Below are positions 2,766-46,558 of a stretch of 64,000 nt of DNA, piece after piece. Numbering within the stretch: the first letter of the stretch is position 1; each line of letters begins with the position of its first letter. Location of the stretch: contig NC_134027.1 of assembly GCF_964204645.1 (NCBI RefSeq), positions 16,028,485-16,092,484 of the forward strand. Reading direction: 5' to 3'. A model generated the notes under the pieces. That model was not told where the DNA came from, searched no databases, and saw only the letters and a program-made list of their open reading frames with translations. Position numbers and translations under genes: made by a program. The stretch comes from Tubulanus polymorphus (taxonomy: Eukaryota > Animalia > Nemertea).

Positions 2766-3514
2766 AAAACTATTTCAAGTACTAACTTTAATCAAGTCTG
2801 AAAACACGTCTGAAAACACGTTAGACTGAATTGAGTTTCCGGTGAGAAAAGTTGGGTACAAAACTCTATCAGAGTCATATGATCGCGGCGTGATTTTCTG
2901 GTGAATGATATCATATGTTATATAAAAATTAGGCGAGTTTTTTCCCTATCAAAAAAGTTACCATCTCGAGGTATCCGACTCGACACTCTCCTCTCAGCGA
3001 TCTCACCAAGAGCTAACTTCTGCAAGTTCAACAGGCTTCGTCTTCCCGTCTTCCAAGTAGGCTTCGTCTTCCTGTCTTCCCAGAGGTCAGATGGTTGTAG
3101 ATCACCAAGGTCTGTTCGGCAAGGGAGCAAATTGTCAAGAAAATAGATAGGGATTTCTATTTCGAGCTGCTGAAAAAATGTGTCCAAAAATGTAAAGTTG
3201 AGTAGTGAGAAAATATCTGTGGTGAAAAAACTTGGTTAGGTTTTAATAAGATTCTCACTCGAATTTTGTATTTAAATGTGATCACTGAGCAAAGTTCCAT
3301 AGTACTCTCTCGACACGAGTCTTGGACACAAGTTCGAAAATAAAAAATAAAGGTTAGACGTGGAAAAAATTTGCTGGTTACAGGATAACTGACTTTGTTC
3401 GTGACGAAGATTCTCGAGTACGACGACGAGGTGTTTTTACCATCTTTACCCAAATAGCAACACCAACCACTACCAACTCAACCAACTCAACTAAACCAGT
3501 CAGCAACACAGTCT

Positions 3515-4579
3515 TTGTTACCCCCAAAGTACGTTAGTTCTACGCAGAAGGATTCCGCAACTTTGGATAACTATCTAACCCAGTGTGTTGATGCTATTCT
3601 TACTTGTCAAATAGAGCAGGAAGAAAATATACCAGTGCCAGAACTTAAAACCTCGGATCTTCAAGACTCGACAACAATGTCTCAGACACAAATCGAGAAC
3701 GTAGACGTAGATACACACGCGGATAACTCAAATACAGAGAACGCAGACGCAGATACACTGGTGGATAACTCGAATACCGATACCACAAACATAGAAGAGA
3801 ATCCAGGCGAACCACCAAGTAATCCCAACGCACATCAACAGGCACCAACTTCTCCACCAACCACCGACGTTGCCGGCGCTACTACCCCTGCTGACTGTGA
3901 CTCTCCTCCCGGCTTTCAAATTGATATTCGACAATTACGCAAATATCTCGAAATCACGTGTGTGCCGAAAAAGTTACCCCAACATAAAATATTACAGTAC
4001 GTTGGTCTGGCAGTGGAAACGTTCAACATCAAGACTAAATTCAACTTATTGGACCACCAAAAACCAATGTATACCATAGAATTCATGAGAAATCACAAAC
4101 TAAAAGTAAATCTGCAAACTCCTCCTCTACACAATTTCGTGCGAGGATATCTTTCCGGATGCGGTGTTATATTTCACGAGGGACCAATTGAGACCAATAT
4201 CGTTCCTAGGCAACCACCACTCGGCTTTTTTAAAAGGAGAGTAGAAGACGGCGAAGGTGAAAGCTCTAGGGTTGTATCTTCTTCATCGGCAAATCACGAC
4301 AACGGTGAATTACCCTGTCATTTACTCTATTATCACGAATCGGAACATCGTCTGTGGATTACGGCTCCGCAGTTGAATACGAATGCGTTGTACAACGTGC
4401 TCAATTTCCGATCGAACAGAGAACTTCAATCTATCCGACAAGGAAAGTCTACGGTCGACTACAACACCGGCATGTATTTGGACTTGGCATTTGTGTCGTT
4501 TACCACAAAACAATCACTCTACGCTTATTTTGGTTACGCTTGTTCTACAACGACTTGGAACATTGGTCTGAAAGGTTAG
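3515..4579 (+). CDS. Hypothetical protein with low-complexity T/D/N/P-rich N-terminus
   Basis: 354-aa ORF; first ATG at 3677; a possible frameshifted continuation runs to about 4763, followed by AATAAA. Confidence 0.55.
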   Translation: MLPPKYVSSTQKDSATLDNYLTQCVDAILTCQIEQEENIPVPELKTSDLQDSTTMSQTQIENVDVDTHADNSNTENADADTLVDNSNTDTTNIEENPGEPPSNPNAHQQAPTSPPTTDVAGATTPADCDSPPGFQIDIRQLRKYLEITCVPKKLPQHKILQYVGLAVETFNIKTKFNLLDHQKPMYTIEFMRNHKLKVNLQTPPLHNFVRGYLSGCGVIFHEGPIETNIVPRQPPLGFFKRRVEDGEGESSRVVSSSSANHDNGELPCHLLYYHESEHRLWITAPQLNTNALYNVLNFRSNRELQSIRQGKSTVDYNTGMYLDLAFVSFTTKQSLYAYFGYACSTTTWNIGLKG

Positions 4580-5857
4580 TGAGGAATCACGTTTTTTCTT
4601 GGGTACAAAATAACATTTTGCAATAAATGGACGAGATTTGGACTTGTTTGAAAAACAAAGTGATGCTGGACATTTCGTTCCAGCGGACGAGTTTTTAAAA
4701 AATATTGCACCTTTCATGAAATGGTATGAGGAGAACAAGGTGGTTCCTCGACCAAATGTTTGATATGTGCACATGCATGTTTTAAAAAAATAAATGTAAA
4801 TATAATTCTAAATATTTGTGTTGAAGTTTTTTGCTCGCTACCTAACCACTGATTCTTGTTTTTTTGGGAAGCGAGTAGGCGACGCTAGCGCTAGGCCACA
4901 TCGGTACACGGTACACGGTACAAGAAAAAAACATGGACTATTTTCTTTAAAATCTTTTAAGGTTTATGGTAAAAGAGTATGAAAAATCTTCGCACCGTGC
5001 ACCGCACTGTGTACCTTAAGGTATAGTAGCCAGAGAGACCCCCATATTTTTATGCCTCAGCGCCACTTTATCGACTATTGGTCATTTTTGGAACTATTCA
5101 TTTTTCAACTTTGGAAACACAACTCTGCCGCTGCTAAGCCACTATAACATTGGTAATTCGACAAGACTTACACGATTTGGCCCTGCCGGGCTGGGACATT
5201 ATGTCTTGTCATACTCAGGGCCGTTGTGGCCTAGCTCTAGTGTCGCATCCACGCTTCCTAAAACAAGAAACAGTGGTTGACGGCGCGGGATTTTTTGGAC
5301 TTGTAATTTTCTCTGATCCCACATGTCGAATCGGTAGAGACTTTCCATAGACATTCATTTTGTTACCCAAATGCAGCCTGTGCAGTAAAACGTCAGTTTT
5401 TCTAAATATCTTTGGTACGTGGTTAGATTTTCTGGGTACAAATAGTTTCCTCACCATGTTTTTATAAAAACTATGTGTATCATTTCAAAATGCCTGGACA
5501 ACAAGTAACTCAAACTATTAAAGCCATCCGGGATGAAGATTATCTCATCCTAGCTGAAAATCTCTATCTCTGAAACGGCCTTGGTCAGAAACCGTCAGGT
5601 GACAACCACCTAGTAAGGAAAGCTCGAAGAAGTCAGGATTCAACGGAATTGGTTGCACAATGCGGGCGGATTTACAAACGTCTTTTAGTGTGAGGGACCA
5701 CCAACCAACGATTAAACTTTGCAAAATTCAGTGCTATCCAAACCAATCTTTTTGGTGAACCATCAACCTACAGAATCGTGGATGAAGAAGGAAGAATTAT
5801 CCAGCCGGTCTGAACAACAAGACCAGGAATAGACAGATTACTAACCAGGTACCCCCT

Positions 5858-7500
5858 TTCCCACACTGGAATTTCTTTTAAACTTTACAAACATGCTTCT
5901 GTCTGTCGATTGATTAATATTATTCCAAAATAAAATTGTAGTTTTTCATCCAAGTTCTAATGTTAGCTTATTGCGCATGCGTTAAGTGAACCCTTCCCTG
6001 CTACACCCCCTTCCCACATAGAGATTCGTTTTAAACTTCACATACGGACAACCAGTCAATATTCCAAAGTAAAATTACAGTTTTTCATACAAGTTCTCGA
6101 TGTAGCATACTGCGCATGCGCGAGAACCACCATGTTTTGTCCGCCATGTTCTAGCTTCATTCACTGCGCTGACTTTCTACTGAAAGGACGTATCGAGATT
6201 TTCTCCGGCCGACAAATCGAATTATTTTTACCTCTTTCCACACCAGGATTATTGTGATTCTTGGATATAGCATCTATCTAGTGTCGATACACATTTTGGT
6301 GAGTTAAAATTTCAGTTTTTCCTAAAATCTTGACTTTGTAGACCATTTTATGCGATTTTTCTTGTAATATTGTCAGAGTTGCATGTACTATGGTTTGCAG
6401 GCTTCCCACAGTTGGATTTCGCTATAACTTTGTATTTTAACTTGTTTTAACATGCTATGAACGCATTCGCCGAGAAAATTCAGTTTTTCTATGAGGTTTT
6501 GATTTTTCGAGGGATGCCTTTGACAACCCTTGACCCTAGCTGAACAAAATTTCAAAGAGCATCTTCCTACACTCGGATTTGCTTTAAACTTCGTATTTGA
6601 GTCTTTTATGATGTTCTATCATCGATTCCAAAGAGAAGATGCAGTTTTTCTCCGAGGTTTAGATTTTACGTGAAAGGGGCCCTGACCCCTTAAACCCCAA
6701 TACATATCTCTGCCTTCCCACAGTTTGATTTTCTCAAAAACTCAACAAATGACATCTAACCATAGAACATAGACGATTCCAATCAAAAGATTGCAGTTTT
6801 TCATCGGGAGTTTGTCTTTTCCACTACTGCGCATGGGCAAGGGTGACCTCCTGTGTCTAATAACCCAACTTATACAAAAATCACACACACTTGGATATCG
6901 ATGGAACTTTGTATAACTGCTTGTTTTCAGGTTTTTCTAAATATTTTATAATTTTTCATTTTGGGTGTTTTTTTGGCTCACTTGCGCCCCAGATCCCCCC
7001 ACCATAGAAAACATGGTTCCCACACTGGGATCGAATTGAAACTTTGCACACATCATCTCTATAACGTATCTAGCCCATTCCACCAGAAAAATTACAGTTT
7101 TTCATCAAAGCTTTCGTTTTACCATACTGCGCATGCGCAAAGTTGGCCATCTTGTGTCCACCACGTTCTCAATTCATTTCCATTCTGTCTTTCAGACCGT
7201 ACGGATCTACCCGAATTCTGTGCTATCATTTGGATTATTCTACACCAGTTCCCACAGTTCGGATTACCATTAGAAAACTATTGGTGAGTAGACATTTCAG
7301 TTTTCTACAAATGTTGACTTTGAGACGATTTTTTATGTTCAATTTCAGGAAAGTTGTGAATTTGTCATTTGGTTATTTGCTAGAATACCATGTTCCCCTA
7401 CTGCGATTTGCCTCAAACTGTGCATGCGTGCTTATTTTTGACCGATAGACACGATGGTGAAATAATATTTCAGTTTTTCTCAAAAATAAAATTTTTGAAA
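5858..7500 (+). repeat. Array of about 10 degenerate units (spacing about 135-230 bp) with conserved boxes TTCCCACA..GGAT / AAACTT / CAGTTTTTC
   Basis: Unit starts at about 5858, 6011, 6235, 6403, 6564, 6715, 6881, 7017, 7249, 7393. Distance from box A to CAGTTTTTC is 78-79 bp in six units. Confidence 0.8.
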
Positions 7501-7704
7501 AAACTTATAGTTAATCCCTGTTGATCTGTTCGGTATGAATAGCGATCCCAAAATTGCTCAGGGTTTTAGAAGTAGGTTTGGCAGTATTCACGTTCTTATA
7601 CCGCTTTGTGTTCTAATGTTCAATCACGTTGATTCTATCCACTCCATTTTCAGTACCAAAACGCAACACATCGATATATAAATTATCTTTGGCAAATTTC
7701 CAAT

Positions 7705-9060
7705 ATGAAGCAATATTGTGTTCTTTGTGAGAAAGACATAGCTTCGAGTTTTCCACGCCACCTGAAAAGCTTTCATCGCATTACGGAAAGAACTATAACA
7801 TTATTCGGAAAAGACTTCAAGGTAGGTAGAAAATCACGTCTGAAATCATTCACGTTTTTGAATCAAACTTTACATGGATTTCATTACTTCACCTCAAATC
7901 ATGTCTAAAATAATTATCGGTTCACACTCATACTATATATTTAACGGGGAGATAATTTTTGCGAGACCTCCCCCCATTACAAGTAAAATCGTCTGGCGTT
8001 AGACCAGTAAAATGTAAAGAGTACGCTTATATGCGGTTCCCGACGTGGAGTGGTTAAAGTCCAACTTCAAATCACGTCTGAAATCATTCACGTTTTGAAT
8101 CAAACTTGATAATCGTAATCGATGTAAATCAAATCCTGATCACGTCTAATATCATTCGCGGTTAAAATCACATGGATTTCATTATTTCATCTCGCATCAC
8201 GTCTAAAATAATTGAGATTTAAACTCACACCGTATAGACTAAAGTGATTTTGTCTTTTGTTTCAGAATATGGGAAAACACAAGGACGAAATGGAAAAGAT
8301 TCCGTTGGTCAACAGATCAACGGTATTTACAAAGTGTCCGGTGGCGGACTGCCCCAAGCTTGTGAAACAATTGGGTCCCCACCTACAAAGCAGTTGCCAC
8401 AATCTGAAGCAAACAGACGCCAAGTACAAAGAACTAATGTGTGAAGGGAAAAAAGCAGAATATAAAATCAAAAAAGAAGTGAACGAAGAACATCGTGAAG
8501 AAGAACGTGGCGCAAATGACGAGGACGATGTAGGTAACGAAATTGATAACGATGAATTAGTGGATAATGAAGAGAATGATGTAGAAGTAGATGGTGTTAT
8601 GGACGATACAATGATGGAGAGTGATGATGATTACATCAACGAACACGCGATAGCTAGACGATCACATGAAAAAACACCACAAAAAATTGCACACAAAAAG
8701 AAAGCTAAAATAATGGACGATGATTATGGAACAGACAATGATAATGATGACGAAGATTATGTCGATGATGGTGAGGTTAAGAATGATTCAAACGATTACA
8801 AAAATGCAGGAGCAGGACAGTCACACAGAAAAACGACATCAAAGTCACACAAAAAGCATAAAGTACCTGACAATTTGAAAGAAGAACTTGCCGCTTTGTT
8901 CAAGAATGAAATAAAGAAGAAAAATATTAGAATTCAGGACGTGCGTACAAAAATGAACAATTCGGTACTTCAACAATTCATAACTTTGTACGGACACGAT
9001 AAGAATATCATGGAAAAAAGATGTTATGATATTGTTCGAGGGATGTATAGAACAAAGTGA
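7705..9060 (+). CDS. Spliced Zn-finger protein paralogous to the adjacent recombinases but lacking the catalytic domain (exons 7705-7821, 8266-9060)
   Basis: Exon 1 is 39 codons (CVLC..PRHLKSFH) ending AAG|GTAGGT. Acceptor TTTTGTTTCAG|AAT at 8265/8266 is phase 0 and in frame. Exon 2 has CPVADC..HLQSSCH, an acidic tract and a helical C-terminal domain. Confidence 0.7.
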
Positions 9061-9261
9061 CTTTTGTCACAATTTTGTAAAGTCGCATCGATGAATATGC
9101 CGAAGATAATAAACTTCCATCGCGTGATTAAAATCGATTTTCTGACTTAATGAGGTTGTTGTACACCAGCACACCCAACAGATGGCATTGTTGTGCATGG
9201 GTCCAATTTTACACTGAAACAGCCCAAAACTAACCGGTTATTTGCTAATATTTCAAAAACG

Positions 9262-11569: not shown

Positions 11570-14452
11570 ATGCCACCAGTGAAGAAGTCAAAATTGACAC
11601 AGAGAAAGTGTCTTTTTTGTGATTGTGATTTTGAATGCTCGTATAAAAATCATCTGCGTAAATATCACCGTTTCTCGTCTGAAGCTGCTACTAAATACTC
11701 TAAAGGTAAATATCTTATATTTCATCATTGTTCAATGTCATTGACGTTCTCTTCCTATTTTTTTCTAATTGACAGACGAATGTCAATCGTTTTCACTATT
11801 ATTGCCAATCACTATAATCACATGCAAATCACTCATCCAATCACTCACGCCTCAAATCATTCATGCCTCAAATCTTATTCGTTTATGTCTGCCTTTCAGT
11901 CTACACACCAATCACCCCTCCAATCATTCATGCCTCAAATCATATTCGTTTATATCTGCAATTCAGTCTACACACCAATCATTGAACTTTCAAATCATTC
12001 ACGTCTCCAATCATGCACACCTAAAAAATCATTAACGCCTCCAATCATTCACCCCTCCAATCATTCATGCCTCAAATCATATTCGTTTATATCTGCAATT
12101 CAGTCTACACACCAATCATTGAACTTTCAAATCATTCACGCCTCAAATCATTCACGCCTCCAATCATGCACACCTAAAAAATCATTAACGCCTCCAATCA
12201 TTCACGCCTCAAATCATTAACTCCTCCAATCATTCACGCCTCAAATCACTCACTCCTCAAATTATTCATGCCTCAAATCATTAACACCTCCAATCATTCA
12301 CGCCTCCAATCATTCATGCCTCAAATCATATTCGTTTATATCTGCAATTCAGTCTACACACCAATCATTGAACTTTCAAATCATTCACGCCACCAATCAT
12401 GCACGCCTCAAATCATTAATGCCTCCAATCATTCACACCTCAAATCACTCACTCCTCAAATCATTCATGCCTCAAATCTTATTCGTTTATGTCTGCAATT
12501 TAGTCTGCACACCAATCACCCCTCTAATCACTGACGCCTCAAATCATTCATCCTCAAATCATAGTTGTATCTGTTTACAACTCACATTCTACACAACAAT
12601 CACGCCTCAAATCATTCACGTCTTAAATCACTCACGCCTTAATTACAATCTACATGCCAATCACGCTTCTAATCACTTACGTCTCAAATCATACATGCCT
12701 CAAATGGCTCATACATAAAAGTTTTAAGAGACAATTACGCCATGAAATAAAAAATTCTGTCAAATCAAAATTATGCTGAAACTACAAATTGTATTGAACT
12801 TTCATTTTTCACTCCCTATATTGTTGCTTTATCATATATTTGTTAATTGTTATGTTTTCTCCATTGAAAAACTTGCTGTTTGTGAGATTATGGATACCGA
12901 ATAAACTAAAACTGAAACCATCAATCACACCTCCAATCACTCACGTCTCAAATCATTCATGTTTTGTTTTTCAGATGCAGCAGATACCAAAGCAACGTGT
13001 CCTGTTGAAGGATGTTTAGCAACATTTGATCGTCTGGACAAACATCTGCGCACGAAAAAACATGGCTTTGTTCCCGGTGATGAAAACTATCATCGATATA
13101 TGGCGATGACTCACAAACAAACGTCAACAAAAAACGTTACAGCGTCGGACAGGAATGGCGATAATGATGATGATGATGATGATGATGATGTTGATGAAGA
13201 TGATGATACTGAAAATGATGCTGCTGAAGAAAATGGAAGTCCAATGGTGGTGGTTGATGACGAAAGCGATGATGACATGGAATATTTTCCGTCAAGTGAT
13301 GATGATGACGATGATGATGATTATAATAACGTTGATGTGGGCATACCAGCAGAATTTCAGGCCGAAAATCGAGAATTCCAGCGGTGGCTGTCGACATTTG
13401 GTGGCGGTATGAAAAGTAACGCCGTCTCTTCTCAAACCGCGAAAATGGCGAATATTGTGTTTAAAAATTTCGGCAATAAAACATTCACAAAATCGTCATT
13501 AATTGACAATTTAAATCAGATTGAACAGAACTTTATTCCAAACATGCTGAAAACAAAACAGGCTAGTACGGTGAAAAACTATTTACTTTCTTTTCAAAAG
13601 TTTATAAAATGGGGTATAATAAAACAAAAGCACTGGGTTTTGAAAGATTGTCACGAGATCATCAACGAGCACGTAAAATTGTGGAATACAAGCTTGAATA
13701 AAATGATTTCTACGCGTGCGCATGAAAAGAAAGAAATTCACAAACGTGCAATTGTTACTGTCAAACAAGTACTATCGTATTTGAATAGTGATCGTGCTAC
13801 CAGAGCAGGCACCATTCTACGTACGTGTCATGAGGCTGCGACAATTTCACAACAAGATCATACAAATGCCCGGAATCACCTGATTATGCTATTAGTACTG
13901 GCCAATGCCACCAGGGCAGGACCTGTAATCAATTTGAAAATCAGTGACGTTTTGAATGCCCAGGATAATGTACATAAAAATCGTTGTGTAATGACAGTGC
14001 TCGTACATAAAACGGAACAAAAGTATGGTAAGGCACAAATTTCGCTCTCAACGAATGAGTATCAATTACTACGAGCATACTTACAACATATTCGTCCAAA
14101 TGTGCCAGCTCAATTCAAGGATAAGGATGCCGTCTTCATCACATGGTCTGGAAGGCAAATGTCTCAATCAGAAATTGCCAACGTTATAACGAGAGAATTT
14201 ATTAAGGTCGGTGGACGTAATGTTCGTGCAAGTTGTACAGTGATGCGAAAATCAATTGTTTCAATTTTGTTGCAAATGAACTTGGGAGCACGCACTGAGC
14301 AAGACCTGGCGACACTGATGAAACATTCGCAAACCATGCAAAAACGTACGTACGACATTCGCGTTGCCGACAACACGATGGCTAAGATGAGTGGACTCGT
14401 TTTTAAAATTATGTCAGGTCAAGATTTGACCGAACAAGATTTAGACGAATAA
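11570..14452 (+). CDS. Spliced Zn-finger tyrosine recombinase (YR1; exons 11570-11705, 12975-14452)
   Basis: Exon 1 CLFC..KNHLRKYH ends AAAG|GTAAAT (phase 1). Acceptor TTTTTCAG|AT at 12974/12975 is phase 1 and in frame. Catalytic motifs NATRAG (R), VHKT (K), CTVMRKS (R), LMKHS (H), RTYD (Y). Confidence 0.8.
11800..12960 (+). repeat. Satellite array II (16-bp monomer AATCATTCACGCCTC(A/C)) filling the YR1 intron
   Basis: Tandem AATCATTCACGCCTCA / AATCATTCATGCCTCA variants plus the recurring block TCATATTCGTTTATATCTGCAATTCAGTCTACACACC. Confidence 0.9.
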
Positions 14453-14734
14453 TCATAGTCGCATCTTCAATCCATAGTCTACGACCTTTTAGGCATGTTT
14501 TCTGTGTGTGCTGTTGATATACTTATTGTCGTTCATTTCTTGTAGATTTGATGTAAACGTGTATAGTAACACTAGTGAATATCAATATCTAGTAAATACT
14601 GAAATTTCAGAAACCAGGACAATCTATTTTATGCTGAAATTTGTACTCGTGTTACCACCAACATGATTTGGGAAATCCCCACAAACACAGAATTTTTGAT
14701 AAATCCGCTTGCCGGAGCCAAGAAGTTATAACAT

Positions 14735-17130: not shown

Positions 17131-18783
17131 ATGGAAACCTCCGAACACACAGAAAATAAGCATCGGGTGGTCTATCGATATCCATGTTCATTGTGTGAAA
17201 AGAATACCACAAATCTACCACGTCATTTGAGAGAATTTCATAAGTTCGATCGCCGCGCATCACTCAAGTTTACGCAGCAACAAAAAGCACAAAACCAACG
17301 AAAAATCAATAGTAATCAAACTCTACACCAGTGTCCGGTTGAAGATTGTTTCAGCGCTGTTAAACGTATTGATAAGCATCTCGGCAACAAACATAAATTC
17401 AAGCGATCAGATCCAATTTACCGTCACTACATGAACTTGGCTAAATGCGAAAAATCTGCCTTTGGATCATCGTCGTTGTGTAGTAAGCAATCTACTCAGC
17501 AGCACTGCAAATCACAGATAACCAACGTTAAAAGCAGCGTAGATAGTGGTTCATCTGATGCATGCGCAAGTGCGAGCGTACAATCTGATAGCGTTAATAA
17601 TCATCAATTTGCCAACGAGATTACAACTTTTGGACGATGGCTACAGACGTTTGGGGGCGGTGAGAAAAACGAACGTCAGGGCTTGCAGGCCGTAAAACAT
17701 GTTCAAAAAATTATTGATATCTACGGTCATGATTTCAGTGCTAACCTCGTCACTGTAAAATTACAAGAGATCGAAAACAAATTCATTTCTCCATCTCTCA
17801 AAACAAAAACAGCCAGTACGGTTAAAAACTACTTACTTGATTTCAAAAAGTTTGTGGAGTACGGAAAACTTCTCGATAAAGACTGGATTACATCAAAAAC
17901 AGTTGAACGGATCGTTAAACAAATCCAAATTTGGAATTGCTCGTTGCAGAAGAAAATCATGGAACGGGCGGCTGTAATGAAGGTCAAACATCGACAAGCA
18001 CTTTTAACAACGAATCATATCAAGCTATATTTGAAAGGCAAACGGGCAGTCATTGGTAACAAGATTTTACGCGATTGTCCTAACGACAAAAAAAGATACA
18101 AGAAGGATACCGATGAACGTCATCGACATAAAAATCGACATTGTTTCATCCGAGCCCGGAACTATCTGATTATGTTATTGAGTCTCAACAACGCGACACG
18201 TTCTGGACCTATAATAAACCTGAAAGTTGGTGAAGTAGATGCAGCTCTGGATAACGTTTACCTTGACAGACATGTGGTCAATGTTGTACAGCATAAAACA
18301 ATGTCGCTCTACGGTGCTGCCCAACTATCGTTAAATTGTTATCATTTCAAACTTCTGAAGGCATTCATCGATCACATTCGTCCTCTGATTCCAAGTTTTG
18401 AAGAAACGAGACACAGTCACCCAACATTCAATGTCTTCTTGTCGTGGAGTGGTCGGACTTTGAACCAGAGTCAAGTCTCCAACATTATTTCCAGTGAACT
18501 TTCTGCGTCCTCGAACAAAGCAAGTCGAACGAGTTGTACGGTGCTCAGAAAATCTGTGGTGTCAACAATGCTAGGATCAGATCTCGGTGCCAGTAACGAA
18601 CGTGATTTGGCTAATTTGATAAAACACTCTGACGCGATGCAGAAAAGAACATACGATGTACGGTGTTCTGATCGTAACATGGCCAGAATGTCTAATATTG
18701 TATGGAAATTTATGACCGAGGGACAAGTTTCTATTGAAGAGTTACAGCACCAGCACCAACATCAGCACCAGCACCGACACTGA
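17131..18783 (+). CDS. Intronless Zn-finger tyrosine recombinase (YR2)
   Basis: Two fingers CSLC..PRHLREFH and CPVEDC..DKHLGNKH. Catalytic motifs NATRSG, QHKT, CTVLRKS, LIKHS, RTYD. Clear paralogue of YR1 (shared WLxTFGGG, ASTVKNYL). Confidence 0.85.
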   Translation: METSEHTENKHRVVYRYPCSLCEKNTTNLPRHLREFHKFDRRASLKFTQQQKAQNQRKINSNQTLHQCPVEDCFSAVKRIDKHLGNKHKFKRSDPIYRHYMNLAKCEKSAFGSSSLCSKQSTQQHCKSQITNVKSSVDSGSSDACASASVQSDSVNNHQFANEITTFGRWLQTFGGGEKNERQGLQAVKHVQKIIDIYGHDFSANLVTVKLQEIENKFISPSLKTKTASTVKNYLLDFKKFVEYGKLLDKDWITSKTVERIVKQIQIWNCSLQKKIMERAAVMKVKHRQALLTTNHIKLYLKGKRAVIGNKILRDCPNDKKRYKKDTDERHRHKNRHCFIRARNYLIMLLSLNNATRSGPIINLKVGEVDAALDNVYLDRHVVNVVQHKTMSLYGAAQLSLNCYHFKLLKAFIDHIRPLIPSFEETRHSHPTFNVFLSWSGRTLNQSQVSNIISSELSASSNKASRTSCTVLRKSVVSTMLGSDLGASNERDLANLIKHSDAMQKRTYDVRCSDRNMARMSNIVWKFMTEGQVSIEELQHQHQHQHQHRH

Positions 18784-22734: not shown

Positions 22735-23361
22735 TTATAAACTTCCACAAACATTGGGTTTATGGGTATCGTGAGATTGACGATGTTCGCGTCTCCGGGT
22801 AGTTCTGCTCTTGTATTCTGTCCATGGTCCATCTTTATCGTCCCAGGTGGTGTCAACGTTGTCCGCATCCAATTCTTGATAATACAATTCATATCTAGCC
22901 TCCAAATACCACCGAACCCAGTCTAACACTGTCATGTGATTTGGCGTCTGTGATTCGGTTAGAATATATTTAAAAATATCCAACATAGCGTCTATGAATT
23001 GTTCCGTAAAGTTACATTGTACCAAAAGACGTCTCATTTCAACCATGACATAATCTTTACCGTATAGATCACGAAAATCGATCACTGTTGCAAATTGTTT
23101 CAAATCGTAATCAAAGTCCTGCAGCAATGTACATTCAGCTATTATTAAAGCACGCTCTATAAACCATGTGTAATCATACGCATGATCTATGAAACAACTA
23201 TCTACACGACCTTCTTCGTAGCTTTTTTCATAAGATTTATAATATTCACTGGGTAGCCATAACGCTTCACATAATTTTAACTCACGTGGGTACAAGGGGG
23301 ACTGGGTAGATCGAATATTCTGGACAGTAGACGTTTTTCGCTGTTTCGCGGCACCAGGCAT
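22735..23361 (-). CDS. Hypothetical protein, paralogue of 45972-46481
   Basis: Shared LYPxxLxLCEALWLPxEYY, CxFTxxFIxA and WxRxYLE motifs. Confidence 0.7.
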   Translation of the reverse strand: MPGAAKQRKTSTVQNIRSTQSPLYPRELKLCEALWLPSEYYKSYEKSYEEGRVDSCFIDHAYDYTWFIERALIIAECTLLQDFDYDLKQFATVIDFRDLYGKDYVMVEMRRLLVQCNFTEQFIDAMLDIFKYILTESQTPNHMTVLDWVRWYLEARYELYYQELDADNVDTTWDDKDGPWTEYKSRTTRRREHRQSHDTHKPNVCGSL

Positions 23362-23688
23362 CTTGAAATGTGTGTATGTCTAAATGATTATTAACATTTG
23401 GTATAGTATATGGTATAGTATATGGTATAGTATATATAACCCCTATATGAAAAAATCCCTCTGCGCGGAAAAACGCCGTTGTCTCGATTGAAATGGACTA
23501 AGGTAGTTGGCTGCATGTCTTTTGCAAAGTTTCAGGCTCATCGGAGTTTGGGAATGTGTAGATGGCGAGGCGATTAAGGGGTGTACAGGGGTAGGGTCAC
23601 CCCCCCCCCCATATGAAAAATTTTCATCTGCGTCATTCAGCCGAACATAGAGAACCACTGCGTGTGCCTGTTTATCTAGACCACCCTT

Positions 23689-24110: not shown

Positions 24111-24289
24111 GGAAAATGTTGAAAATTTGAAAATTTGGCCAAGTTCGAAAATTTTTCATTTTCCATTCACCATAATATATGATGTTTATTCTTGACTTTA
24201 TGCCATGTCAGACTCATACGGCTCACTGTGCTGCTGCTGCATCATTGCCTTAGCTCCATGTCTTGGCACAAATCTCTTGCTACTGCATG

Positions 24290-35476: not shown

Positions 35477-38400
35477 ATGAAAAATTTACAAAGCGGGGGT
35501 GCTGTTACAAGTAGACAAAGTGTGAATGAAGAAAAAGAGTTTTGGAACAGAAAACTAAATCACAATGATTCTTCAACAACCACCGATCTCAATATCCACT
35601 ACTCTAACGTTTGTCAAGAAGAACATTTGGTCTATTCAGACCCCAGGCAAAAATTAGACAAAGACGGTGTACCCCAACAAGTATTGAAACGATGTATCGA
35701 AGAAAAACAACACATCGACCGATTAACCATCGACGGTATATACACAGATGCCAGTCTCTTTGTAAAACCGATGGTTTTCGATTGCAGGCGTCTGACGTCC
35801 AATTCAACAATCATAAACGGTCATCGTGCCCTGTACTTGTACTATCATGGACCAAGAAATGCAATCTTTATACGATTCAAATCGCAAAGTCGTGCATTAA
35901 GCTATGCCAACACAAGAACGATAACGAAGTTTCTAAACTATTTACGAGGACCGTACGGTGGTTGGCTGAAATCGATTGTCGATGCAAAACTAACTGTGAT
36001 CAGGACATTCAAACAGGCAGTGTGCGGACCAAAACATGCCATCAAACTAATATGTACCGGCAGCGGCCCAAGTCCTTACAAGTTATTGGCCGCGTTGGAA
36101 AACGGACCCTACTCCGAAGATTTTACCCACGAGATTCACGATACGGCCATCACTGGCTATACCCGTCACATGGTTTCGAAAAGTACCAAACCGATAGGTG
36201 TTATGCGCAGAGATACTGCCAGACAACAACAATGCTCTTCTGAAATTGAAATTGACCAACATAAAACTTGGGACTACGAGACACTTTGTAATGGAGACAA
36301 TAATCAAAACACATCTGCCAACAATACCCAAACCCACGGCTTTTATAACGAAGAGGCAATGTCTTCGTTTGATGCGACTTTACCCCACATTAAATCTCGA
36401 CGTGAAAAAGACGATGAAATTAAATATTTTCAAAGTCATGTCTACTACAAAGACATCACGTTTCCCTACAGCGATAGGGAGATTGAGATTGTAGAACCGC
36501 TGCCAAATGACGACTCCGAGTGCATGGACATCGATGAGGAAGAAAATGAGCTGTTGGGTTCATTAGATTTTCGTCAACTTGAACCGAACACGTACAAGGG
36601 CAAATTATTGACGAAATTAGCGAGAAAGCTGGCCGAGACTATAGATCTGTGCTGTGAAAACGATGTCAAAGATCCACTCGGCGCTGATGAAGTCTACTAT
36701 GACGACGATACCCAAATTATACCCGAACATTGGTATCATATGGATGCTGAGAAAATGAACGAAGAAATCACTAAAGTTTACAGAGAAGAAATTCGGCGCA
36801 AGGCTGAGACCGAACGAATCAACGTAACCGAGCGTTTTGAAGACGCTGGGGCAGATTTCACCGAAGATGATGTTGACTACTCTATCAACTACAAACGAAA
36901 AGAATGGGATTATACGAGAAAGCTTTCCGGCTATATAATGAAAAGACAAGTCCACCAATTAGCCGAATTGTTGAAAGAAATGAGAGATGAACTAAACGAT
37001 GCTGCAGAACCTCTCATAATATCATGGGACAAGGACTTGAAACGTAAAGTGTTGCACCCACTTACGAAAAATGTCAACTTGTACCAATCTGACGATGTCT
37101 TCTCCCATTTTGTGTTTGAAATGAGCAGTATGGCTAGCAGAAGTGGTGTGTTGAACGCAGAATGCATTGTCACCTCTGATATTATCGACCAAGTCCGGCT
37201 GAGACTTGTAGAAATTACATCAGCTCTACGAAATGTGGCCACTACGTTTTGGAGAACAGAGATAGTCGCGTTAGAAGACAAAAATGTCTCAAAACAACGC
37301 AACGAAACACGAGAAGAAATTGCCAAGACGATAGTAACCAATTTAGAGTGCGTGTCGATCGATTTGGAAACAGGCTTTGAAAAAAATGCCATACCCACAT
37401 CACAATGTGATCCAATCATATCTGCGGTAGCATCCAAGTTCAATCACGAGAAAACGCCACAAGGCAACTATACATTTCAAGAACATGTTTTATTCCTAGT
37501 CAAGCCGCCGAATGATCCAAAAACCGGCAAGCCTCCACCAAAACAAAAAACGGAAGGTAGTGGGGACTTGGAAAAAATCATCGAAGATGTAAAACTCCAC
37601 ATAAAAGGTGATCCAGACGATGAAGAGGTGCAAGAGAAACTTAATGCGTTTCTTAAAAAAGTCGACTTGAACATGATACCCAACGAAACGGTTTTTATTG
37701 AAGAATGCGACACGGAAGCAGAGTTGATTGTAAAAATGACGCTCTATCTAAGAGACTGTCCCATACTGATCGGTTACAACAGTACTTGTTTCGATTGGAG
37801 TGTTTTCGAAAATAGAATGCGGGCTACGGTTCCCTGTGTTAGCGGCAAAATTGAACCTAAGGAATACGTGCTAGAATTGAAGCAAAAACGCAACAATAAA
37901 ACTGCCAACAAAATCACAAAACCTAAGAGCATGTTCAACAATGCATTCCACCTCTGTCTATCACATCGAATGGATACCAAGGCAAAATTGGTCTTCAAAG
38001 TCAACGGTGAAGAACAAGCAAAAGTTATAGACAAGAGAAAACGCGACTGGGAAATGATCAGAGGTAATCGACGCATAGCTGGTGGCACGTCCACGAAACT
38101 GACGGAAATCATGAATTCGGAAGTTGACAAGGAAGCGGCTGATTTCGTCAAATATTTCGTTCTACCACCCGATATACCCAGAGAGGTCTCATACGAGTGG
38201 TGGAAAAGTACCAGATCGAAAAAAAGTTCCGGTGCTGTCAAAAAATCCACAGGCAAGCGTAAACGAGCACCTTCATCCACTAGCAGCAACAATCCGTCGG
38301 GTAAAAAACGACTTCTTCAAAACGGTGCTTCAACCTCGATGAGTGGCTTAAATAACAACACGATCAGTGGCTACGAATCGGTCGATAGCACTACAAGCTG

Positions 38401-41400
38401 CAGTACAACGACGAGTAAAAGACGGCGCAAGGGCGATACTACAACTGACAATAGCGACGATGATAGCGTATTTTTCGATGACATGGACAATCATTGTGTT
38501 GATGTTGCTTTCGAGGAATTTGCCAATGATCCTGAGGACGAAGGATACCTGTCTGAAGATGAAAAAACCCAACAGATGGCTGCCATAGAAGGTGTGCAAG
38601 GCGTAAACGATATTTTCAAAAGAATCAAGTACATTGCCGTCAACAACAGCACCTATGTGGACATGATGCCGTTGGTGGCACAGAATGCCGCCAAGATGAT
38701 TGATTTATCCACAGCCACGTTTCGTCAACTGGGCATAAAGAAATTGGAACACGAAAAAGTAAAGTACACGAATCTATTGGATACTTATCGGAACGGTGAA
38801 ACCGACATCATCCTAGAGTACAACTTGATCGATGTGTTACTACCCGCCATCATGTACATCCAAAAGGAATCTTTGGCTTTCACCACAACAGTCTGTATGA
38901 AAACGGTGCAACCACCGCGGACGATTTACGAAGACGCGCCAATGTGCATGGTCAGTGGAGTCCTAGCCAACAATGGGACTTGGTTCGATAAAACCGTCAT
39001 GCCTGGCACATCCAAGAAAATTACCGAAGAAGACATGAAGAAACCGGGCTTCAAATACGACGCCATAAAACACTTTGAACAGTTGAAACAACCTGGCGGC
39101 ATTCGAGGAGCAGTACCCGAGTTTATAGGCACACCTTGCGCTTGTGTCGATGCCACCAACATGTACCCAAGGGCAATCATGAAGGAAAATGTTGGCATGA
39201 CCGGTATGGTCACGATGGAGTACATCAAGCGAAATAATTTGAAACGGGGAGTTCACTACGACATGGAGATGTTAACTACGGTCGATTTAGATGGGAATAT
39301 CGTCAACTTGGTGGTGGCAAAAATAAAAGCTGATCAATACAAAACCATCGAAAGTTTCACCTGTGACGATATGTTGGGCAACAGACTACACTTTAAACGA
39401 CTCATGGCGACCGAAAAAGATCCCTTCAAAAAGGCCAACTACGATCAAAATCAAAAGGCTTTAAAACTTTTGCTGAATATAGTCTATGGATTTTGTGGTG
39501 TCATGTTGGCCCTCATATCGGCACTTGTTACCAAGTACGGACGAAATCAAACTCTTAGAATGGCACATATATGGCAAACGTGGTATTCAGACTATATTGC
39601 AAAAATAACTCAAAAATGGTATGCGGAAAAAATTGCCAATGCCGATACAGATTCTGACTTTCTACTCTTCGGTTCAGAGTTAGAATTTAGCGACTTGTCG
39701 ACTTTTGCCAAAAAACTTGGCCTCCCTGAGAAAAGCGGCACAAAGACCATAATTACCCACTCTTTGACAATCGTTGACGAGTACTTGGAATTTGCCAACA
39801 GAGATCAGGCGCCAAGTAAATTCCTCTTCGAAAAATACTTTCATCGTGGAACAGTCTGCCAGGGACAGAAAAATTACTGCGGACCCAAGGTGGAAAAGGG
39901 TGGTGGAGGAGAATATGTTGTATCGTTTCACGTTGCCGGGCTAGTCGGAATGAAAAATACTGCAACCAAGCTAAAAACTCAAATGCAGTACGGCAGCATG
40001 TACCTGTTGCTGGACAGAGATCCTATCGGTTCACTTACCTACGGCGAAGAAGTCTATCATATGGCCTACAGAACAATTCTCATCGAAGAAGTCATAGATG
40101 AAATAGAGACAAAGTTAAACCAAATATTATCTACCGAGGAAAAAGACGACCTGCGCCAACAACTCTGCTGTGGTCTAAAACTGTTAGACCCGAGCAAAGT
40201 CCAGAGCAAAGAAAAAGTCGGTGATATGGAAAAAATGAAAACTGTCGCAACGAAAGCAGCCGCCAAGGAATGTAAAAAGAAAAATTTACCCCTAGACAAG
40301 GCACCGATGTATGTAACGCTCACCAGATCGTGCCAAGCACAGATTAGCGGTACTCAGAAGAAATTGTTGGACACAATTCTGGTCAACTGCCCGATAGAAA
40401 AGGAGGAAATAAAACGCAAAGAAGAGAGTCAGAAAATGAAAAAGTTGACTTCAGCTGATTTGACAAAATTTGACAAGACGATGGTAGCCGATTCAGAAAG
40501 ATACGGGTTCAAGTATACCCCGGACCAATACCGAAAAACCAGAACTTTCAGATCGGCTATCAAAGAAATGACCGACATGCGAGACACTTTGATGTTGAAT
40601 ACATCCATAATGACAGTGAACAAACTCAAAGAAGAAGCCAAACATCTCATACTCACCATAGAAGACAAAAAAACATCGTCCATAGGCAGCAGTATGAAAC
40701 ACGGTGCTATTGCCAATAAACATAGCAAAATATTCTCAACCATTCAACAGACCAAGTCCATGACAGATGGTGAAATAAAACGAAAACAACTCAGAAACAA
40801 CTTAGTTGGTAATCTCAGTGAAAGGGCACTCAACTATATGAACAATTTGGACTCATACCCTATGGATCGGATGTGTTTGCGAGTTATGATGTCTGGTAAC
40901 TACGCAATTTCAACTTTTGATGATTTTGCGGCTATCGGTGAACCCACCACCACAGATCAATTGATTACCAAGTGGGCAGAAGAGTGCGTGGATGGCAACT
41001 CTTCACCGATACTATCCACGCACAAGTTGAATCTGTCCACAACAGATGAAACACACAAGACCGTCGATCTGTGGGCACTCTACACAAATCGAGGTCGAGA
41101 ATTGATGGACTTTAGATGGTTCGTGATATCAATTCAACACTCTACCTTATACACGATACATAAATCCGGAAAAGATTTCATCAACAAAGTCACATCTGAG
41201 CCGAAATGTGTATCGATCGGACCAGACTACAACACTTGGTTGAACGAACGCGTGATGTTAACTCAGAAGAAAAAATCTCCAATCATACCCGACTACTGCA
41301 TAGTTGATATGTACCCGTACACGATTCAAACAATGACCACGCCGTTTATCACAGACAACGTTAATGGCTATTCTGAATTAGTCAACAACGATTCGTTTTG

Positions 41401-42136
41401 TCTAAATCGTCAAAACACGTTCGCCTACAAATGTAATGGTGATCTCTTGTTATCCGCACTTCAAAAAATGCGTGATATCGTGGATATAGGCAAAAATGTC
41501 TATAGAGTTGTACAATTTACCCCGATTCTCAACTCAGCCACATTCAGTGTCAACACGACCACATTTGATCACAAGAAAACTAAAAGGTCGCGATTACACT
41601 TTAAAAAGCCGCTCCAAGACATTGTAATTCCATGTGAAATCGTAAGAGACGATGAAAGACAACAAAGTCACTGGGTCCGCAGACAACCTGGTTTATGTGT
41701 GTACATTGACGAATTGATCCCGTTACTAGAGCAAAAGTTGAGCAGATCACTGAAAAACCCTGACAACTGTCTGAAAATGGTGTTTTTTCAGGATTTGATG
41801 GAGTTGGAAATATCATGTGTTCCAAAAAATAGATATGGAGGGACAACCATGACTCCCTGTACTATTCCAATTACCCATGTCAAAGACCGAGCAGTAGATA
41901 GTGAGATATTCGGAAAGTTGCATACCCCTCGTGAAAAAATGTCGTTTGGTACCGCTCAGACAGTCACAGCACCGACACCAACCACATTACTGCCTCAAGC
42001 CTCAACTTCAACCACGGTACAATGTACAGATTCGGACTTTCTGGACGATGATGATGTGATATACATAGAGACAAAAAACGTTACAAGAAATAGTAACCTG
42101 GTACAAACAAAATTGTGTTTCGTACCAAAATTGTAA
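35477..42136 (+). CDS. polB: Family B DNA polymerase, large viral type
   Basis: ExoI SIDLETG, ExoII GYNSTCFDW, ExoIII EYNLIDV; pol motifs VDATNMYP, QKALKLLLNIVYG, NADTDS; 2219 aa. Confidence 0.95.
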   Translation: MKNLQSGGAVTSRQSVNEEKEFWNRKLNHNDSSTTTDLNIHYSNVCQEEHLVYSDPRQKLDKDGVPQQVLKRCIEEKQHIDRLTIDGIYTDASLFVKPMVFDCRRLTSNSTIINGHRALYLYYHGPRNAIFIRFKSQSRALSYANTRTITKFLNYLRGPYGGWLKSIVDAKLTVIRTFKQAVCGPKHAIKLICTGSGPSPYKLLAALENGPYSEDFTHEIHDTAITGYTRHMVSKSTKPIGVMRRDTARQQQCSSEIEIDQHKTWDYETLCNGDNNQNTSANNTQTHGFYNEEAMSSFDATLPHIKSRREKDDEIKYFQSHVYYKDITFPYSDREIEIVEPLPNDDSECMDIDEEENELLGSLDFRQLEPNTYKGKLLTKLARKLAETIDLCCENDVKDPLGADEVYYDDDTQIIPEHWYHMDAEKMNEEITKVYREEIRRKAETERINVTERFEDAGADFTEDDVDYSINYKRKEWDYTRKLSGYIMKRQVHQLAELLKEMRDELNDAAEPLIISWDKDLKRKVLHPLTKNVNLYQSDDVFSHFVFEMSSMASRSGVLNAECIVTSDIIDQVRLRLVEITSALRNVATTFWRTEIVALEDKNVSKQRNETREEIAKTIVTNLECVSIDLETGFEKNAIPTSQCDPIISAVASKFNHEKTPQGNYTFQEHVLFLVKPPNDPKTGKPPPKQKTEGSGDLEKIIEDVKLHIKGDPDDEEVQEKLNAFLKKVDLNMIPNETVFIEECDTEAELIVKMTLYLRDCPILIGYNSTCFDWSVFENRMRATVPCVSGKIEPKEYVLELKQKRNNKTANKITKPKSMFNNAFHLCLSHRMDTKAKLVFKVNGEEQAKVIDKRKRDWEMIRGNRRIAGGTSTKLTEIMNSEVDKEAADFVKYFVLPPDIPREVSYEWWKSTRSKKSSGAVKKSTGKRKRAPSSTSSNNPSGKKRLLQNGASTSMSGLNNNTISGYESVDSTTSCSTTTSKRRRKGDTTTDNSDDDSVFFDDMDNHCVDVAFEEFANDPEDEGYLSEDEKTQQMAAIEGVQGVNDIFKRIKYIAVNNSTYVDMMPLVAQNAAKMIDLSTATFRQLGIKKLEHEKVKYTNLLDTYRNGETDIILEYNLIDVLLPAIMYIQKESLAFTTTVCMKTVQPPRTIYEDAPMCMVSGVLANNGTWFDKTVMPGTSKKITEEDMKKPGFKYDAIKHFEQLKQPGGIRGAVPEFIGTPCACVDATNMYPRAIMKENVGMTGMVTMEYIKRNNLKRGVHYDMEMLTTVDLDGNIVNLVVAKIKADQYKTIESFTCDDMLGNRLHFKRLMATEKDPFKKANYDQNQKALKLLLNIVYGFCGVMLALISALVTKYGRNQTLRMAHIWQTWYSDYIAKITQKWYAEKIANADTDSDFLLFGSELEFSDLSTFAKKLGLPEKSGTKTIITHSLTIVDEYLEFANRDQAPSKFLFEKYFHRGTVCQGQKNYCGPKVEKGGGGEYVVSFHVAGLVGMKNTATKLKTQMQYGSMYLLLDRDPIGSLTYGEEVYHMAYRTILIEEVIDEIETKLNQILSTEEKDDLRQQLCCGLKLLDPSKVQSKEKVGDMEKMKTVATKAAAKECKKKNLPLDKAPMYVTLTRSCQAQISGTQKKLLDTILVNCPIEKEEIKRKEESQKMKKLTSADLTKFDKTMVADSERYGFKYTPDQYRKTRTFRSAIKEMTDMRDTLMLNTSIMTVNKLKEEAKHLILTIEDKKTSSIGSSMKHGAIANKHSKIFSTIQQTKSMTDGEIKRKQLRNNLVGNLSERALNYMNNLDSYPMDRMCLRVMMSGNYAISTFDDFAAIGEPTTTDQLITKWAEECVDGNSSPILSTHKLNLSTTDETHKTVDLWALYTNRGRELMDFRWFVISIQHSTLYTIHKSGKDFINKVTSEPKCVSIGPDYNTWLNERVMLTQKKKSPIIPDYCIVDMYPYTIQTMTTPFITDNVNGYSELVNNDSFCLNRQNTFAYKCNGDLLLSALQKMRDIVDIGKNVYRVVQFTPILNSATFSVNTTTFDHKKTKRSRLHFKKPLQDIVIPCEIVRDDERQQSHWVRRQPGLCVYIDELIPLLEQKLSRSLKNPDNCLKMVFFQDLMELEISCVPKNRYGGTTMTPCTIPITHVKDRAVDSEIFGKLHTPREKMSFGTAQTVTAPTPTTLLPQASTSTTVQCTDSDFLDDDDVIYIETKNVTRNSNLVQTKLCFVPKL

Positions 42137-46481: not shown

Positions 46482-46558
46482 ACAGAAGTAAAAAGTTGGC
46501 GCATGTTGAATAAGAAAAGTTCCAATTACCCAGACCCAGAGTTAGAAAATATTTCGAT

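What the first reader, a model, noticed from the sequence alone, without database searches (positions are those of the whole stretch)
5858..7500. Ten-unit array with conserved boxes at a fixed 78-bp distance but variable interiors
Box A TTCCCACA(C/G)TNGGAT followed by AAACTT lies 78, 78, 78, 79, 78 and 78 bp before CAGTTTTTC in the units at 6235, 6403, 6564, 6715, 7017 and 7393. The sequence between boxes differs from unit to unit. Conserved geometry with divergent filling suggests selection on spacing rather than simple tandem duplication. The average period of about 170 bp is near nucleosome repeat length. Possible roles are a phased-nucleosome or protein-binding scaffold, an array of recombination sites for the adjacent YRs, or a series of small RNAs.
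Basis: partly seen in the sequence, partly recalled or inferred. Interest (0 to 1): 0.8.

Follow-up and report, generated by a model that had tools for sequence, protein, structure and literature searches.

The report
Fixed-geometry promoter array in worm provirus
A virus-like stretch in an animal genome, likely a ribbon worm's, carries eleven old, much-diverged copies of a roughly 100-base unit, most keeping two sequence boxes 78 bases apart, and because a lone twelfth copy sits just in front of another gene of the element, the row likely works as a stacked promoter or enhancer for the neighbouring zinc-finger and recombinase genes.

Summary
The array is real and larger than reported: ten units at 5858-7479, an eleventh at 5316 and a twelfth, solitary, at 23554 (minus strand). 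Box A lies 78 bp before box C in 6 of 11 array units here. Four of the five off-length units are 78 bp in other sequenced copies, so 78 is ancestral and this copy is decaying. Interiors are diverged paralogues, not acquired spacers. The carrier is an unclassified large DNA virus-like element (PolB, two tyrosine recombinases, BIR protein). In the same host species the array is no more abundant than the flanking viral genes. Both solitary units lead, 174 and 193 bp on, into an ATG whose 17-base context matches 16 of 17, and the array ends upstream of a zinc-finger gene. Best reading (0.5): a protein-binding promoter/enhancer cassette multiplied by unequal recombination, working like a baculovirus hr without being one. 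Main rival (0.22): the internal array of a Kolobok-type transposon. Nucleosome phasing, structured small RNAs and recombinase sites found no support. The scan held no look-alike of this sequence; it had noted unrelated fixed-spacing arrays in fungi and a bacterium. Function is untested.

The parts
5316..5402 (+). Unit 0 (solitary, left of the main array); box A 5316, box C 5394, distance 78
5481..5497 (+). Start-codon context (ATG at 5490) matching 16 of 17 bases with the context of ATG 23361; the frame stops after 27 codons and coding-looking sequence runs on to about 5815 (broken gene, inferred)
5858..5947 (+). Unit 1, N-type; distance 81; the one unit not seen at 78 in any copy
6011..6086 (+). 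Unit 2, N-type; distance 67 here, 78 in run X4; long tail with NRF1-like (6111) and YY1-like (6141) motifs (motif names recalled)
6235..6321 (+). Unit 3, G-type; distance 78
6403..6489 (+). Unit 4, H-type; distance 78
6564..6650 (+). Unit 5, H-type; distance 78; box A is the consensus form in runs X4, X5, X7
6715..6802 (+). Unit 6, N-type; distance 79 here, 78 in runs X4, X5, X7, X10
6882..6937 (+). Unit 7; distance 46 here, 78 in runs X1, X2, X12 (same species label) and X5, X10
7017..7103 (+). Unit 8, N-type; distance 78; long tail with NRF1-like (7128) and YY1-like (7146) motifs (names recalled)
7249..7306 (+). Unit 9, G-type; distance 49 here, 78 in runs X4, X5, X7
7393..7479 (+). Unit 10, G-type; distance 78; last unit, 312 bp upstream of the zinc-finger gene ATG
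7705..7821 (+). Predicted first coding exon of a zinc-finger gene (acceptor-like AG at 7652-7653, donor-like GT at 7822); 40% identical to the N-terminal finger of the recombinase at 17131
8266..9060 (+). Predicted second exon of the zinc-finger gene (finger, acidic tract, helical C-terminus); intron holds 16-bp repeats
11570..14452 (+). Tyrosine recombinase gene 1 (predicted exons 11570-11706 and 12975-14452)
17131..18783 (+). Tyrosine recombinase gene 2 with two N-terminal zinc fingers
23468..23554 (-). Solitary twelfth unit; boxes A and B plus GTTTTTC in the 78-bp register; 193 bp upstream of ATG 23361
22735..23361 (-). 208-aa ORF downstream of the solitary unit; has a 35% identical paralogue at about 46038-46553
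5016..5064 (+). TTAA followed by GGTATAGTA; a different left flank joins here in runs X5 and X7; weakly similar to 23424-23466. Possible transposon end or module boundary
5082..5274 (+). Short element present twice in the host-species runs (second copy left of the window)
35477..42136 (+). Family B DNA polymerase, 2219 aa; marks the carrier as a large DNA virus-like element (context)

Best explanation
The array is a head-to-tail stack of one old, roughly 100-base cassette with conserved boxes at fixed distances, and it likely serves as a protein-bound promoter/enhancer block for the zinc-finger and tyrosine-recombinase genes of a likely endogenous large DNA virus. Shown: the geometry (box A at 0, box B at +22, box C at +78), its persistence across units 36-68% identical, the 78-bp state in other copies, gain and loss of whole units between copies, and a twelfth unit 16 kb away that shares a start-codon context with unit 0. 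Inferred: a factor or complex contacts A/B and C at once, which fixes the distance and leaves the interior free; single cassettes drive single genes; unequal recombination between similar tails multiplied the cassette; the stack strengthens or tunes transcription of the downstream cluster and may double as a replication origin, as baculovirus hrs do. The copy in this window is inferred to be relaxed, since 5 of its 11 array units have left the 78-bp state.
For: (1) A profile of 8 array units finds one further unit in the window, 23554-23464 minus, E 0.011; joint score 29.7 against 7.5 for the next non-array site. (2) Units 5316 and 23554 lead on their own strand to ATGs 174 and 193 bp away whose contexts match 16 of 17 bases; 0 of 298 random window stretches exceeded 14 of 17. 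(3) Of 22 gene starts examined, 3 have a unit within 350 bp upstream: 5490 (added after the fact), 23361 and the zinc-finger gene. (4) Run X10 joins the N-type tail at 6161 straight to 7638-7640, just before the zinc-finger gene's acceptor-like site. (5) All 4 N-type tails carry an NRF1-like palindrome 33-34 bp after box C, 2 of them also a YY1-like motif (names recalled). (6) Raw reads of the host-species run X12 show no excess depth on the array over flanking viral genes, and X1 contigs are flat at 87-90, so it travels with the element there. (7) Unit gain and loss: X10 skips unit 2 (5958 to 6141) and shows a further box-A-like start after 6866.
Against: No transcript or binding data exist. 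Most gene starts in the window (19 of 22) lack the unit, including both recombinase genes and the paralogue of ORF 23361. The frames behind the two matching ATGs show no protein similarity. No TATA box sits at a fixed place in the stacked units (by eye). In run X4 contig depth is 270-1140 over 5472-7495, about 210 on the zinc-finger gene and 17 on the ORF to the left, and X10 holds the array without 2000-3756; this fits a separate mobile repeat, though contig depth is no copy number and the left ORFs may be an accessory cassette. Unit 1 is off-length here and loses a further 15 bases in X10. The shared cassette could be a transposon relic that two genes happen to sit behind.
Confidence: 0.5

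Rival explanations
1. The array is the internal or subterminal repeat region of a non-autonomous Kolobok-type DNA transposon that starts at TTAA|GG (5016-5021) and was inserted into the viral element; box A would be a THAP-domain transposase site.
For: TTAA followed by RR fits Kolobok ends (PMC9587614); X5 and X7 have another flank exactly there; depth on the array in X4 is far above its left flank. Box A read on the minus strand fits the THAP pattern TXXGGGX(A/T) (PMC10824691) in 8 of 11 array units and in 23554; Kolobok transposases carry THAP, and the presumed Kolobok MITE Xmix has an amplified internal segment (PMC6004289).
Against: No inverted copy of the 16-base left end near the array's right side at up to 4 mismatches; the right TTAA at 7511 is preceded by AG, not YY; no THAP signature in six frames of the window; no excess depth in the host-species run; the 7 Lineus KolobokP ends and the others seen do not match by eye (2 of 106 parts of that supplement read). 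The THAP pattern is weak (3 per kb in the rest of the window). Similarity between 5316 and 23554 runs past the supposed terminus at 23424 to the ATG. The 5020/23424 similarity is only marginal (score 33 against 32 for background).
Confidence: 0.22
2. Each unit is a small-RNA gene: box A is a SNAPc-type upstream element, transcription starts near +60 and ends in the T run of box C, giving unstructured RNAs of about 22-26 nt.
For: Fixed spacing is typical of snRNA-type promoters; box A matches the stringently kept T5, C6 and C8 of the insect PSEA (PMC1761439); box C holds five Ts in most units.
Against: A3 and A10 of the PSEA core ATTC-CAA are not kept in most units; no TATA or PSEB in place; the solitary unit precedes a protein gene; no Rfam match; folds are no better than shuffles. 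The host's own snRNA promoter could not be examined.
Confidence: 0.1
3. The units are recombination or accessory sites for the neighbouring tyrosine recombinases, used to shuffle promoter cassettes or excise the region.
For: Two recombinase genes lie 4-11 kb away; X10 has two joints that go back 3.1 and 3.3 kb across the array; the unit has borderline inverted symmetry (43 of 1000 shuffles reach it).
Against: The arms are about 50 bp apart, unlike compact lox/dif-type cores (recalled); none of the listed joints falls at one fixed position of the unit (tables were cut); interiors are homologous, not captured.
Confidence: 0.08
4. A neutral old satellite whose boxes and spacing survive only through ancestry and occasional gene conversion.
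For: Subfamilies and block duplication are evident; this copy tolerates length changes in 5 of 11 units; 160-180 bp satellites are common in a mollusc (PMC8268682).
Against: Units 36-68% identical keep one length in 11 of 12 cases in at least one copy while tails vary by 85 bp; a unit 16 kb away on the other strand keeps the register.
Confidence: 0.1

Closest known systems
Baculovirus homologous regions (hrs) and the direct-repeat clusters of nudiviruses (PMC6626001, passages read; enhancer role and IE1 binding recalled)
   Same: Non-coding repeat units in a large invertebrate DNA virus-like genome, at more than one locus, next to regulatory genes, variable in copy number.
   Different: No compact central palindrome or EcoRI core; symmetry is borderline with arms about 50 bp apart; units are far more diverged; fixed inner length with free tails; origin and enhancer function untested.
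Endogenous nimaviruses of crustaceans (PMC10871703, passages read), as a match for the carrier
   Same: Large DNA virus-like element with zinc-finger tyrosine recombinases, a multi-exon recombinase gene and a BIR protein.
   Different: Host is likely a ribbon worm; membership of Nimaviridae or any virus family was not established; the passages read describe no such array.
Kolobok/T2-MITE Xmix with the Xstir internal array, and KolobokP LTDRs (PMC6004289 passages; PMC9587614 passages and supplement parts)
   Same: TTAA|RR boundary on the left; internal tandem array; length held constant while sequence varies.
   Different: No right TIR or second target-site copy found, no transposase, no independent amplification in the host-species run, no sequence match by eye to the LTDRs seen.
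Helitron/Helentron central repeats of oyster (PMC8268682 passages and supplement passages)
   Same: Monomers of about 160-180 bp in short arrays with conserved boxes; an AAA(C/T)TT motif.
   Different: Box 1 and Box 3 do not match by eye, motif spacing differs, and no microsatellite precedes the array.
Insect snRNA promoters, PSEA plus PSEB or TATA (PMC1761439, passages read)
   Same: Rigid spacing; TTC-C core at the upstream end.
   Different: PSEA core only partly matched, no PSEB or TATA in place, no snRNA body.

Membership tests
Baculovirus-type hr | Repeat units at several loci of one viral genome | tested here: met
   Array, unit 5316 and unit 23554; only 64 kb seen
Baculovirus-type hr | Compact imperfect palindrome with a central EcoRI-like core in each unit | tested here: not met
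   Only borderline symmetry, 43 of 1000 shuffles, arms about 50 bp apart
Baculovirus-type hr | Enhancer and replication-origin activity | not testable with these tools
   No functional data
Kolobok DNA transposon | 5'-RR end after TTAA | tested here: met
   TTAA then GG at 5016-5021; another flank there in X5 and X7
Kolobok DNA transposon | Matching YY-3' end with TIR and second TTAA | tested here: not met
   No inverted 16-mer at up to 4 mismatches near the right side; AG before TTAA 7511; other copies run on past 7509 unseen
Kolobok DNA transposon | THAP-DDE transposase, or similarity to a family that has one | tested here: inconclusive
   No THAP signature in the window; no match by eye to the LTDRs in 2 of 106 supplement parts; Repbase not available
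Kolobok DNA transposon | Dispersed copies at many host sites | tested here: inconclusive
   No excess in host-species raw reads; high contig depth in X4; no host genome held
Helentron/HINE central tandem repeats | Conserved end boxes plus a microsatellite before the array | tested here: not met
   No tandem repeat reported in 5000-7500; oyster Boxes 1 and 3 unlike (by eye)
CRISPR- or integron-like array | Unrelated, acquired spacers between near-identical repeats | tested here: not met
   Interiors share 36% in register, peak at shift 0; orthologous interiors differ by scattered substitutions only
Tyrosine-recombinase target sites | Two short inverted arms around a 6-8 bp core (recalled) | tested here: not met
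   No such unit-internal repeat among the 7 inverted pairs; symmetry test
snRNA-type (SNAPc) genes | PSE matching the host's own, with PSEB or TATA at a fixed distance | tested here: inconclusive
   Partial match to insect PSEA; host PSE unknown; no fixed TATA
Structured small-RNA cluster | Stable shared fold or Rfam family | tested here: not met
   16 folds with z -1.35 to +1.53; Rfam none at gathering score; no tRNA
Nucleosome-phasing satellite | Uniform or helically quantised period | tested here: not met
   Periods 135-232 bp; Rayleigh p 0.51-0.89 for 9 periods
Nimaviridae or Herpesvirales (carrier) | Family core genes and polymerase placement | tested here: inconclusive
   No family-specific Pfam or NCBIfam hit; best solved relatives are Pol delta; model unusable

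The most novel reading that the evidence does not exclude
The element keeps a bank of portable promoter cassettes: one rigid 78-bp module, read by a single virus- or host-encoded complex, is stored as a diversified stack beside the recombinase genes and is moved by recombination in front of individual viral genes, supplying promoter and start codon together. This would be a eukaryotic-virus counterpart of cassette shuffling that acts on promoters.
Probability: 0.12. Interest if true: 0.82.

Novelty: new variant of a known kind. Interest (0 to 1): 0.47.

Why it matters
Regulatory DNA of endogenous giant viruses in invertebrates is almost unstudied, and this carrier seems undescribed: 3 polymerase relatives among 5.8 billion proteins and none in IMG/VR. 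Twelve natural variants of one cassette, with invariant spacing and known decayed versions, give a ready footprint for finding the binding complex. They also allow a clean test of whether spacing, not sequence, is what is read. If it is a transposon array instead, it is an ordinary case with an unusually well-kept geometry.

Tried and rejected
Host genome: none held, so dispersal in the host could not be counted. RNA: no RNA holder listed; this says nothing on expression. Pattern scans: 0 hits for the full unit in IMG/VR; 1 hit in metagenomes, a low-complexity contig with no blastn similarity to the window, taken as chance; 12 hits for boxes A+B alone, none with box C or a second unit, taken as chance. 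Related loci: none for recombinase 2 or the polymerase alignment in IMG/VR. ORF 23361: no homologue among 76 candidates. Polymerase model: pLDDT 36, so no fold search was run. Atlas gave no result. Recombinase 1 has 824 relatives at E 0.001 but the library has no names or context. Bacterial promoter scan: at chance level and not apt. Considered and dropped: V(D)J/Transib-type signals (heptamer-like start, no nonamer; recalled); a CSL/RBP-J site array (TGTGGGAA in 6 of 11 units but not in 7393 or 23554; motif recalled; not excluded as the box A factor); small coding exons inside the array (frame-changing indels at 6195 and 6205 in other copies); 23424 as a transposon terminus (similarity to unit 0 runs past it). 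X5, X6 and X7 are low-depth, share X4's variants and are not counted as independent. Literature searches returned nothing; others listed no description of this array. Two papers sought by DOI were not held. Supplements seen only in part (2 of 106 parts of the KolobokP consensus file) and Repbase, which was not available, may hold a match.

Full report
OBSERVATION. The reported distances are exact: 78, 78, 78, 79, 78 and 78 bp from box A to box C at 6235, 6403, 6564, 6715, 7017 and 7393. The ten units start at 5858, 6011, 6235, 6403, 6564, 6715, 6882, 7017, 7249 and 7393, with distances 81, 67, 78, 78, 78, 79, 46, 78, 49 and 78 and tails of 72-157 bp. An eleventh unit at 5316 is also 78. The pattern is far beyond chance. 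Two corrections apply. The literal consensus fits only 2 units. The interiors are diverged paralogues: 36% identity in register against 25-30% shifted, over 15 pairs of six units. Whole units are 36-68% identical (7 units) and fall into subfamilies, here called N (5858, 6011, 6715, 7017), G (6235, 7249, 7393) and H (6403, 6564).

CONTEXT. The window holds a 2219-aa family B polymerase, two tyrosine recombinases with zinc fingers, a BIR-like and a galaxin-like protein, and many orphan ORFs. The polymerase has 3 relatives among 5.8 billion proteins and none in IMG/VR; the virus family could not be assigned. Earlier AI notes on other pieces of this genome call the host a ribbon worm (not checked). 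Predicted introns and transposon-like insertions suggest an integrated element (inference). Endogenous nimaviruses are the nearest described carriers: they have zinc-finger recombinases and BIR proteins (PMC10871703, passages).

OTHER COPIES. Eleven runs from 9 studies hold the stretch or part of it; 8 of the 17 listed runs were laid. They form three groups: the host-species label (X1, X2, X12), X4 with the low-depth X5, X6 and X7 that share its variants, and X10. Four of the five off-length units are 78 in other copies, by arithmetic on the listed indels: 6011 has 11 more bases in X4; 6715 has 1 fewer in X4, X5, X7 and X10; 6882 has 32 more in X1, X2 and X12 and reaches 78 also in X5 and X10; 7249 has 29 more in X4, X5 and X7. 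The exception is 5858, which is 81 here and loses 15 bases in X10. Eight listed indel sites lie in tails or in the T run of box C (6100, 6129, 6195, 6205, 6315, 6360-6361, 6385, 6994). The tables were cut (20 and 26 indel rows not shown). X4, X5 and X7 also carry the consensus box A at 6568 and the full palindrome at 6836. So 78 bp is the ancestral state and this copy is drifting. Whole units come and go: X10 skips unit 2, skips 6162-7637, and shows a further box-A-like start after 6866.

COPY NUMBER. In raw reads of X12 the array has about 24-39-fold depth, against 35-54 on the ORFs to the left and 26-40 to the right; X1 contigs are flat at 87-90. In that species the array is thus no more abundant than the viral genes. 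In X4, contig depth is 17 left of 4904, 270-1140 over 5472-7495 and about 210 on the zinc-finger gene; X10 lacks 2000-3756. Contig depth is no copy number, and the left ORFs lie between two copies of the 5082-5274 element and may be accessory, so this cuts both ways. It is the main evidence for a separate mobile repeat.

THE TWELFTH UNIT. A matrix of boxes A and B finds one site outside the array, 23554 on the minus strand (score 26 against 12 for the next; one of 200 shuffled backgrounds reached 29). It has GTTTTTC exactly in the 78-bp register. An HMM of 8 units gives it E 0.011 over model positions 4-94, and its joint score is 29.7 against 7.5 for the next non-array site. It lies 193 bp upstream of the ATG of a 208-aa ORF. 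Unit 5316 lies 174 bp upstream of an ATG at 5490, and the two start contexts match at 16 of 17 bases; none of 298 random stretches passed 14. The frames behind them are not similar as proteins, and the one at 5490 stops after 27 codons. The last array unit lies 312 bp upstream of a predicted zinc-finger exon at 7705-7821 that resembles the recombinase's N-terminal finger (E 5e-07). X10 joins an N-type tail directly to the acceptor-like site before this exon. All 4 N-type tails carry a TGCGCATG palindrome 33-34 bp after box C and 2 carry a GCCAT(G/C)TT motif; the names NRF1 and YY1 are recalled. Against this, 19 of 22 gene starts examined have no unit upstream.

MECHANISM. Shown: fixed geometry, deep divergence, ancestral 78 bp, unit turnover, linkage of two units to matching start contexts. 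Inferred: one complex contacts boxes A/B and C together, fixing the distance and freeing the interior; single cassettes act as gene promoters; unequal recombination between similar tails built the stack; the stack drives or tunes the zinc-finger and recombinase cluster and may also be an origin. The unit has borderline inverted symmetry (43 of 1000 shuffles), which would suit a dimeric binder. The factor is unknown. Box A fits the THAP pattern in 9 of 12 units, with three variant boxes changing only free positions (pattern from PMC10824691, one passage), but the pattern is weak. It fits the recalled CSL site in 6 of 12.

RIVALS. A Kolobok-type array is favoured by TTAA|GG at 5016-5021 with another flank in X5 and X7, by the X4 depth, and by the Xmix/Xstir precedent (PMC6004289, passages; PMC9587614, passages, first sixth of the text and supplement parts). 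It lacks a right TIR, a second target site, a transposase and amplification in the host species. Small RNAs: no fold, no Rfam or tRNA match; box A matches the insect PSEA only in part (PMC1761439, passages). Recombinase sites: no compact inverted core. Nucleosome phasing: periods are neither uniform nor helically quantised. Helentron repeats of oyster have similar lengths but unlike boxes (PMC8268682, passages and supplement passages).

KNOWN OR NEW. It works most like a baculovirus hr (definition from PMC6626001, passages) but fails the compact-palindrome test, so it is not filed as one. Ten literature searches showed no description of it; Repbase could not be searched. The scan held no look-alike sequence; it had noted unrelated fixed-spacing arrays in fungi and a promoter-head module in a bacterium, the latter seen before the promoter reading was formed.

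VERDICT. Real, under old spacing constraint, relaxed in this copy. Likely a stacked promoter/enhancer cassette of an undescribed endogenous large DNA virus (0.5); Kolobok-type array 0.22; small-RNA genes 0.1; neutral satellite 0.1; recombinase sites 0.08. New variant of a known kind; interest 0.47.

Noticed in passing
window 826-63396: The window looks like an undescribed large DNA virus-like element: 2219-aa PolB with only 3 relatives found (40-52% identity), two zinc-finger tyrosine recombinases, a BIR protein, a galaxin-like protein and many orphan ORFs up to 2066 aa.
   Followed up: partly
window 659, 2849, 3212, 4586, 5447, 24811, 26768, 30162, 43065, 49997, 54292, 63424, 63535: A motif TTYCTCAC occurs 14 times in non-coding and 4 times in coding DNA, sometimes as inverted pairs; candidate element-wide regulatory site.
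   Followed up: partly
window 7824-8230, 9755-11118, 11839-12960, 14731-15050: Arrays built on a 16-bp unit fill the introns and flanks of the zinc-finger and recombinase genes.
   Followed up: no
window 7652, 11546, 17111 (approximate): The zinc-finger gene and both recombinase genes have an acceptor-like site shortly before the ATG with no obvious upstream exon; a shared leader or trans-splicing is possible.
   Followed up: no
window 4844-4904 and 5221-5278; 4914-4993: An 82% identical 61-bp inverted repeat flanks a segment that is joined in the opposite orientation in run X4.
   Followed up: no
window 6925-6933: The window lacks 32 bases present in all three host-species runs laid (X1, X2, X12); either a private deletion between short direct repeats or an assembly feature.
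   Followed up: partly
window 48652-49342 and 23689-24136: A 690-bp near-perfect palindrome and a partial copy of it (94-98% identity).
   Followed up: no
window 24738, 26777, 32461, 42948: A 20-bp unit repeated 2-3 times at four intergenic sites; a second candidate hr-like family.
   Followed up: no
window 23574-23690: A short segment bounded by TTAA on both sides with GGG...CCC ends; possible miniature Kolobok-type insertion.
   Followed up: no
run X10 laid on window 4928-9098: Two joints go back 3074 and 3287 bases across the array; circles, tandem modules or a different gene order.
   Followed up: no
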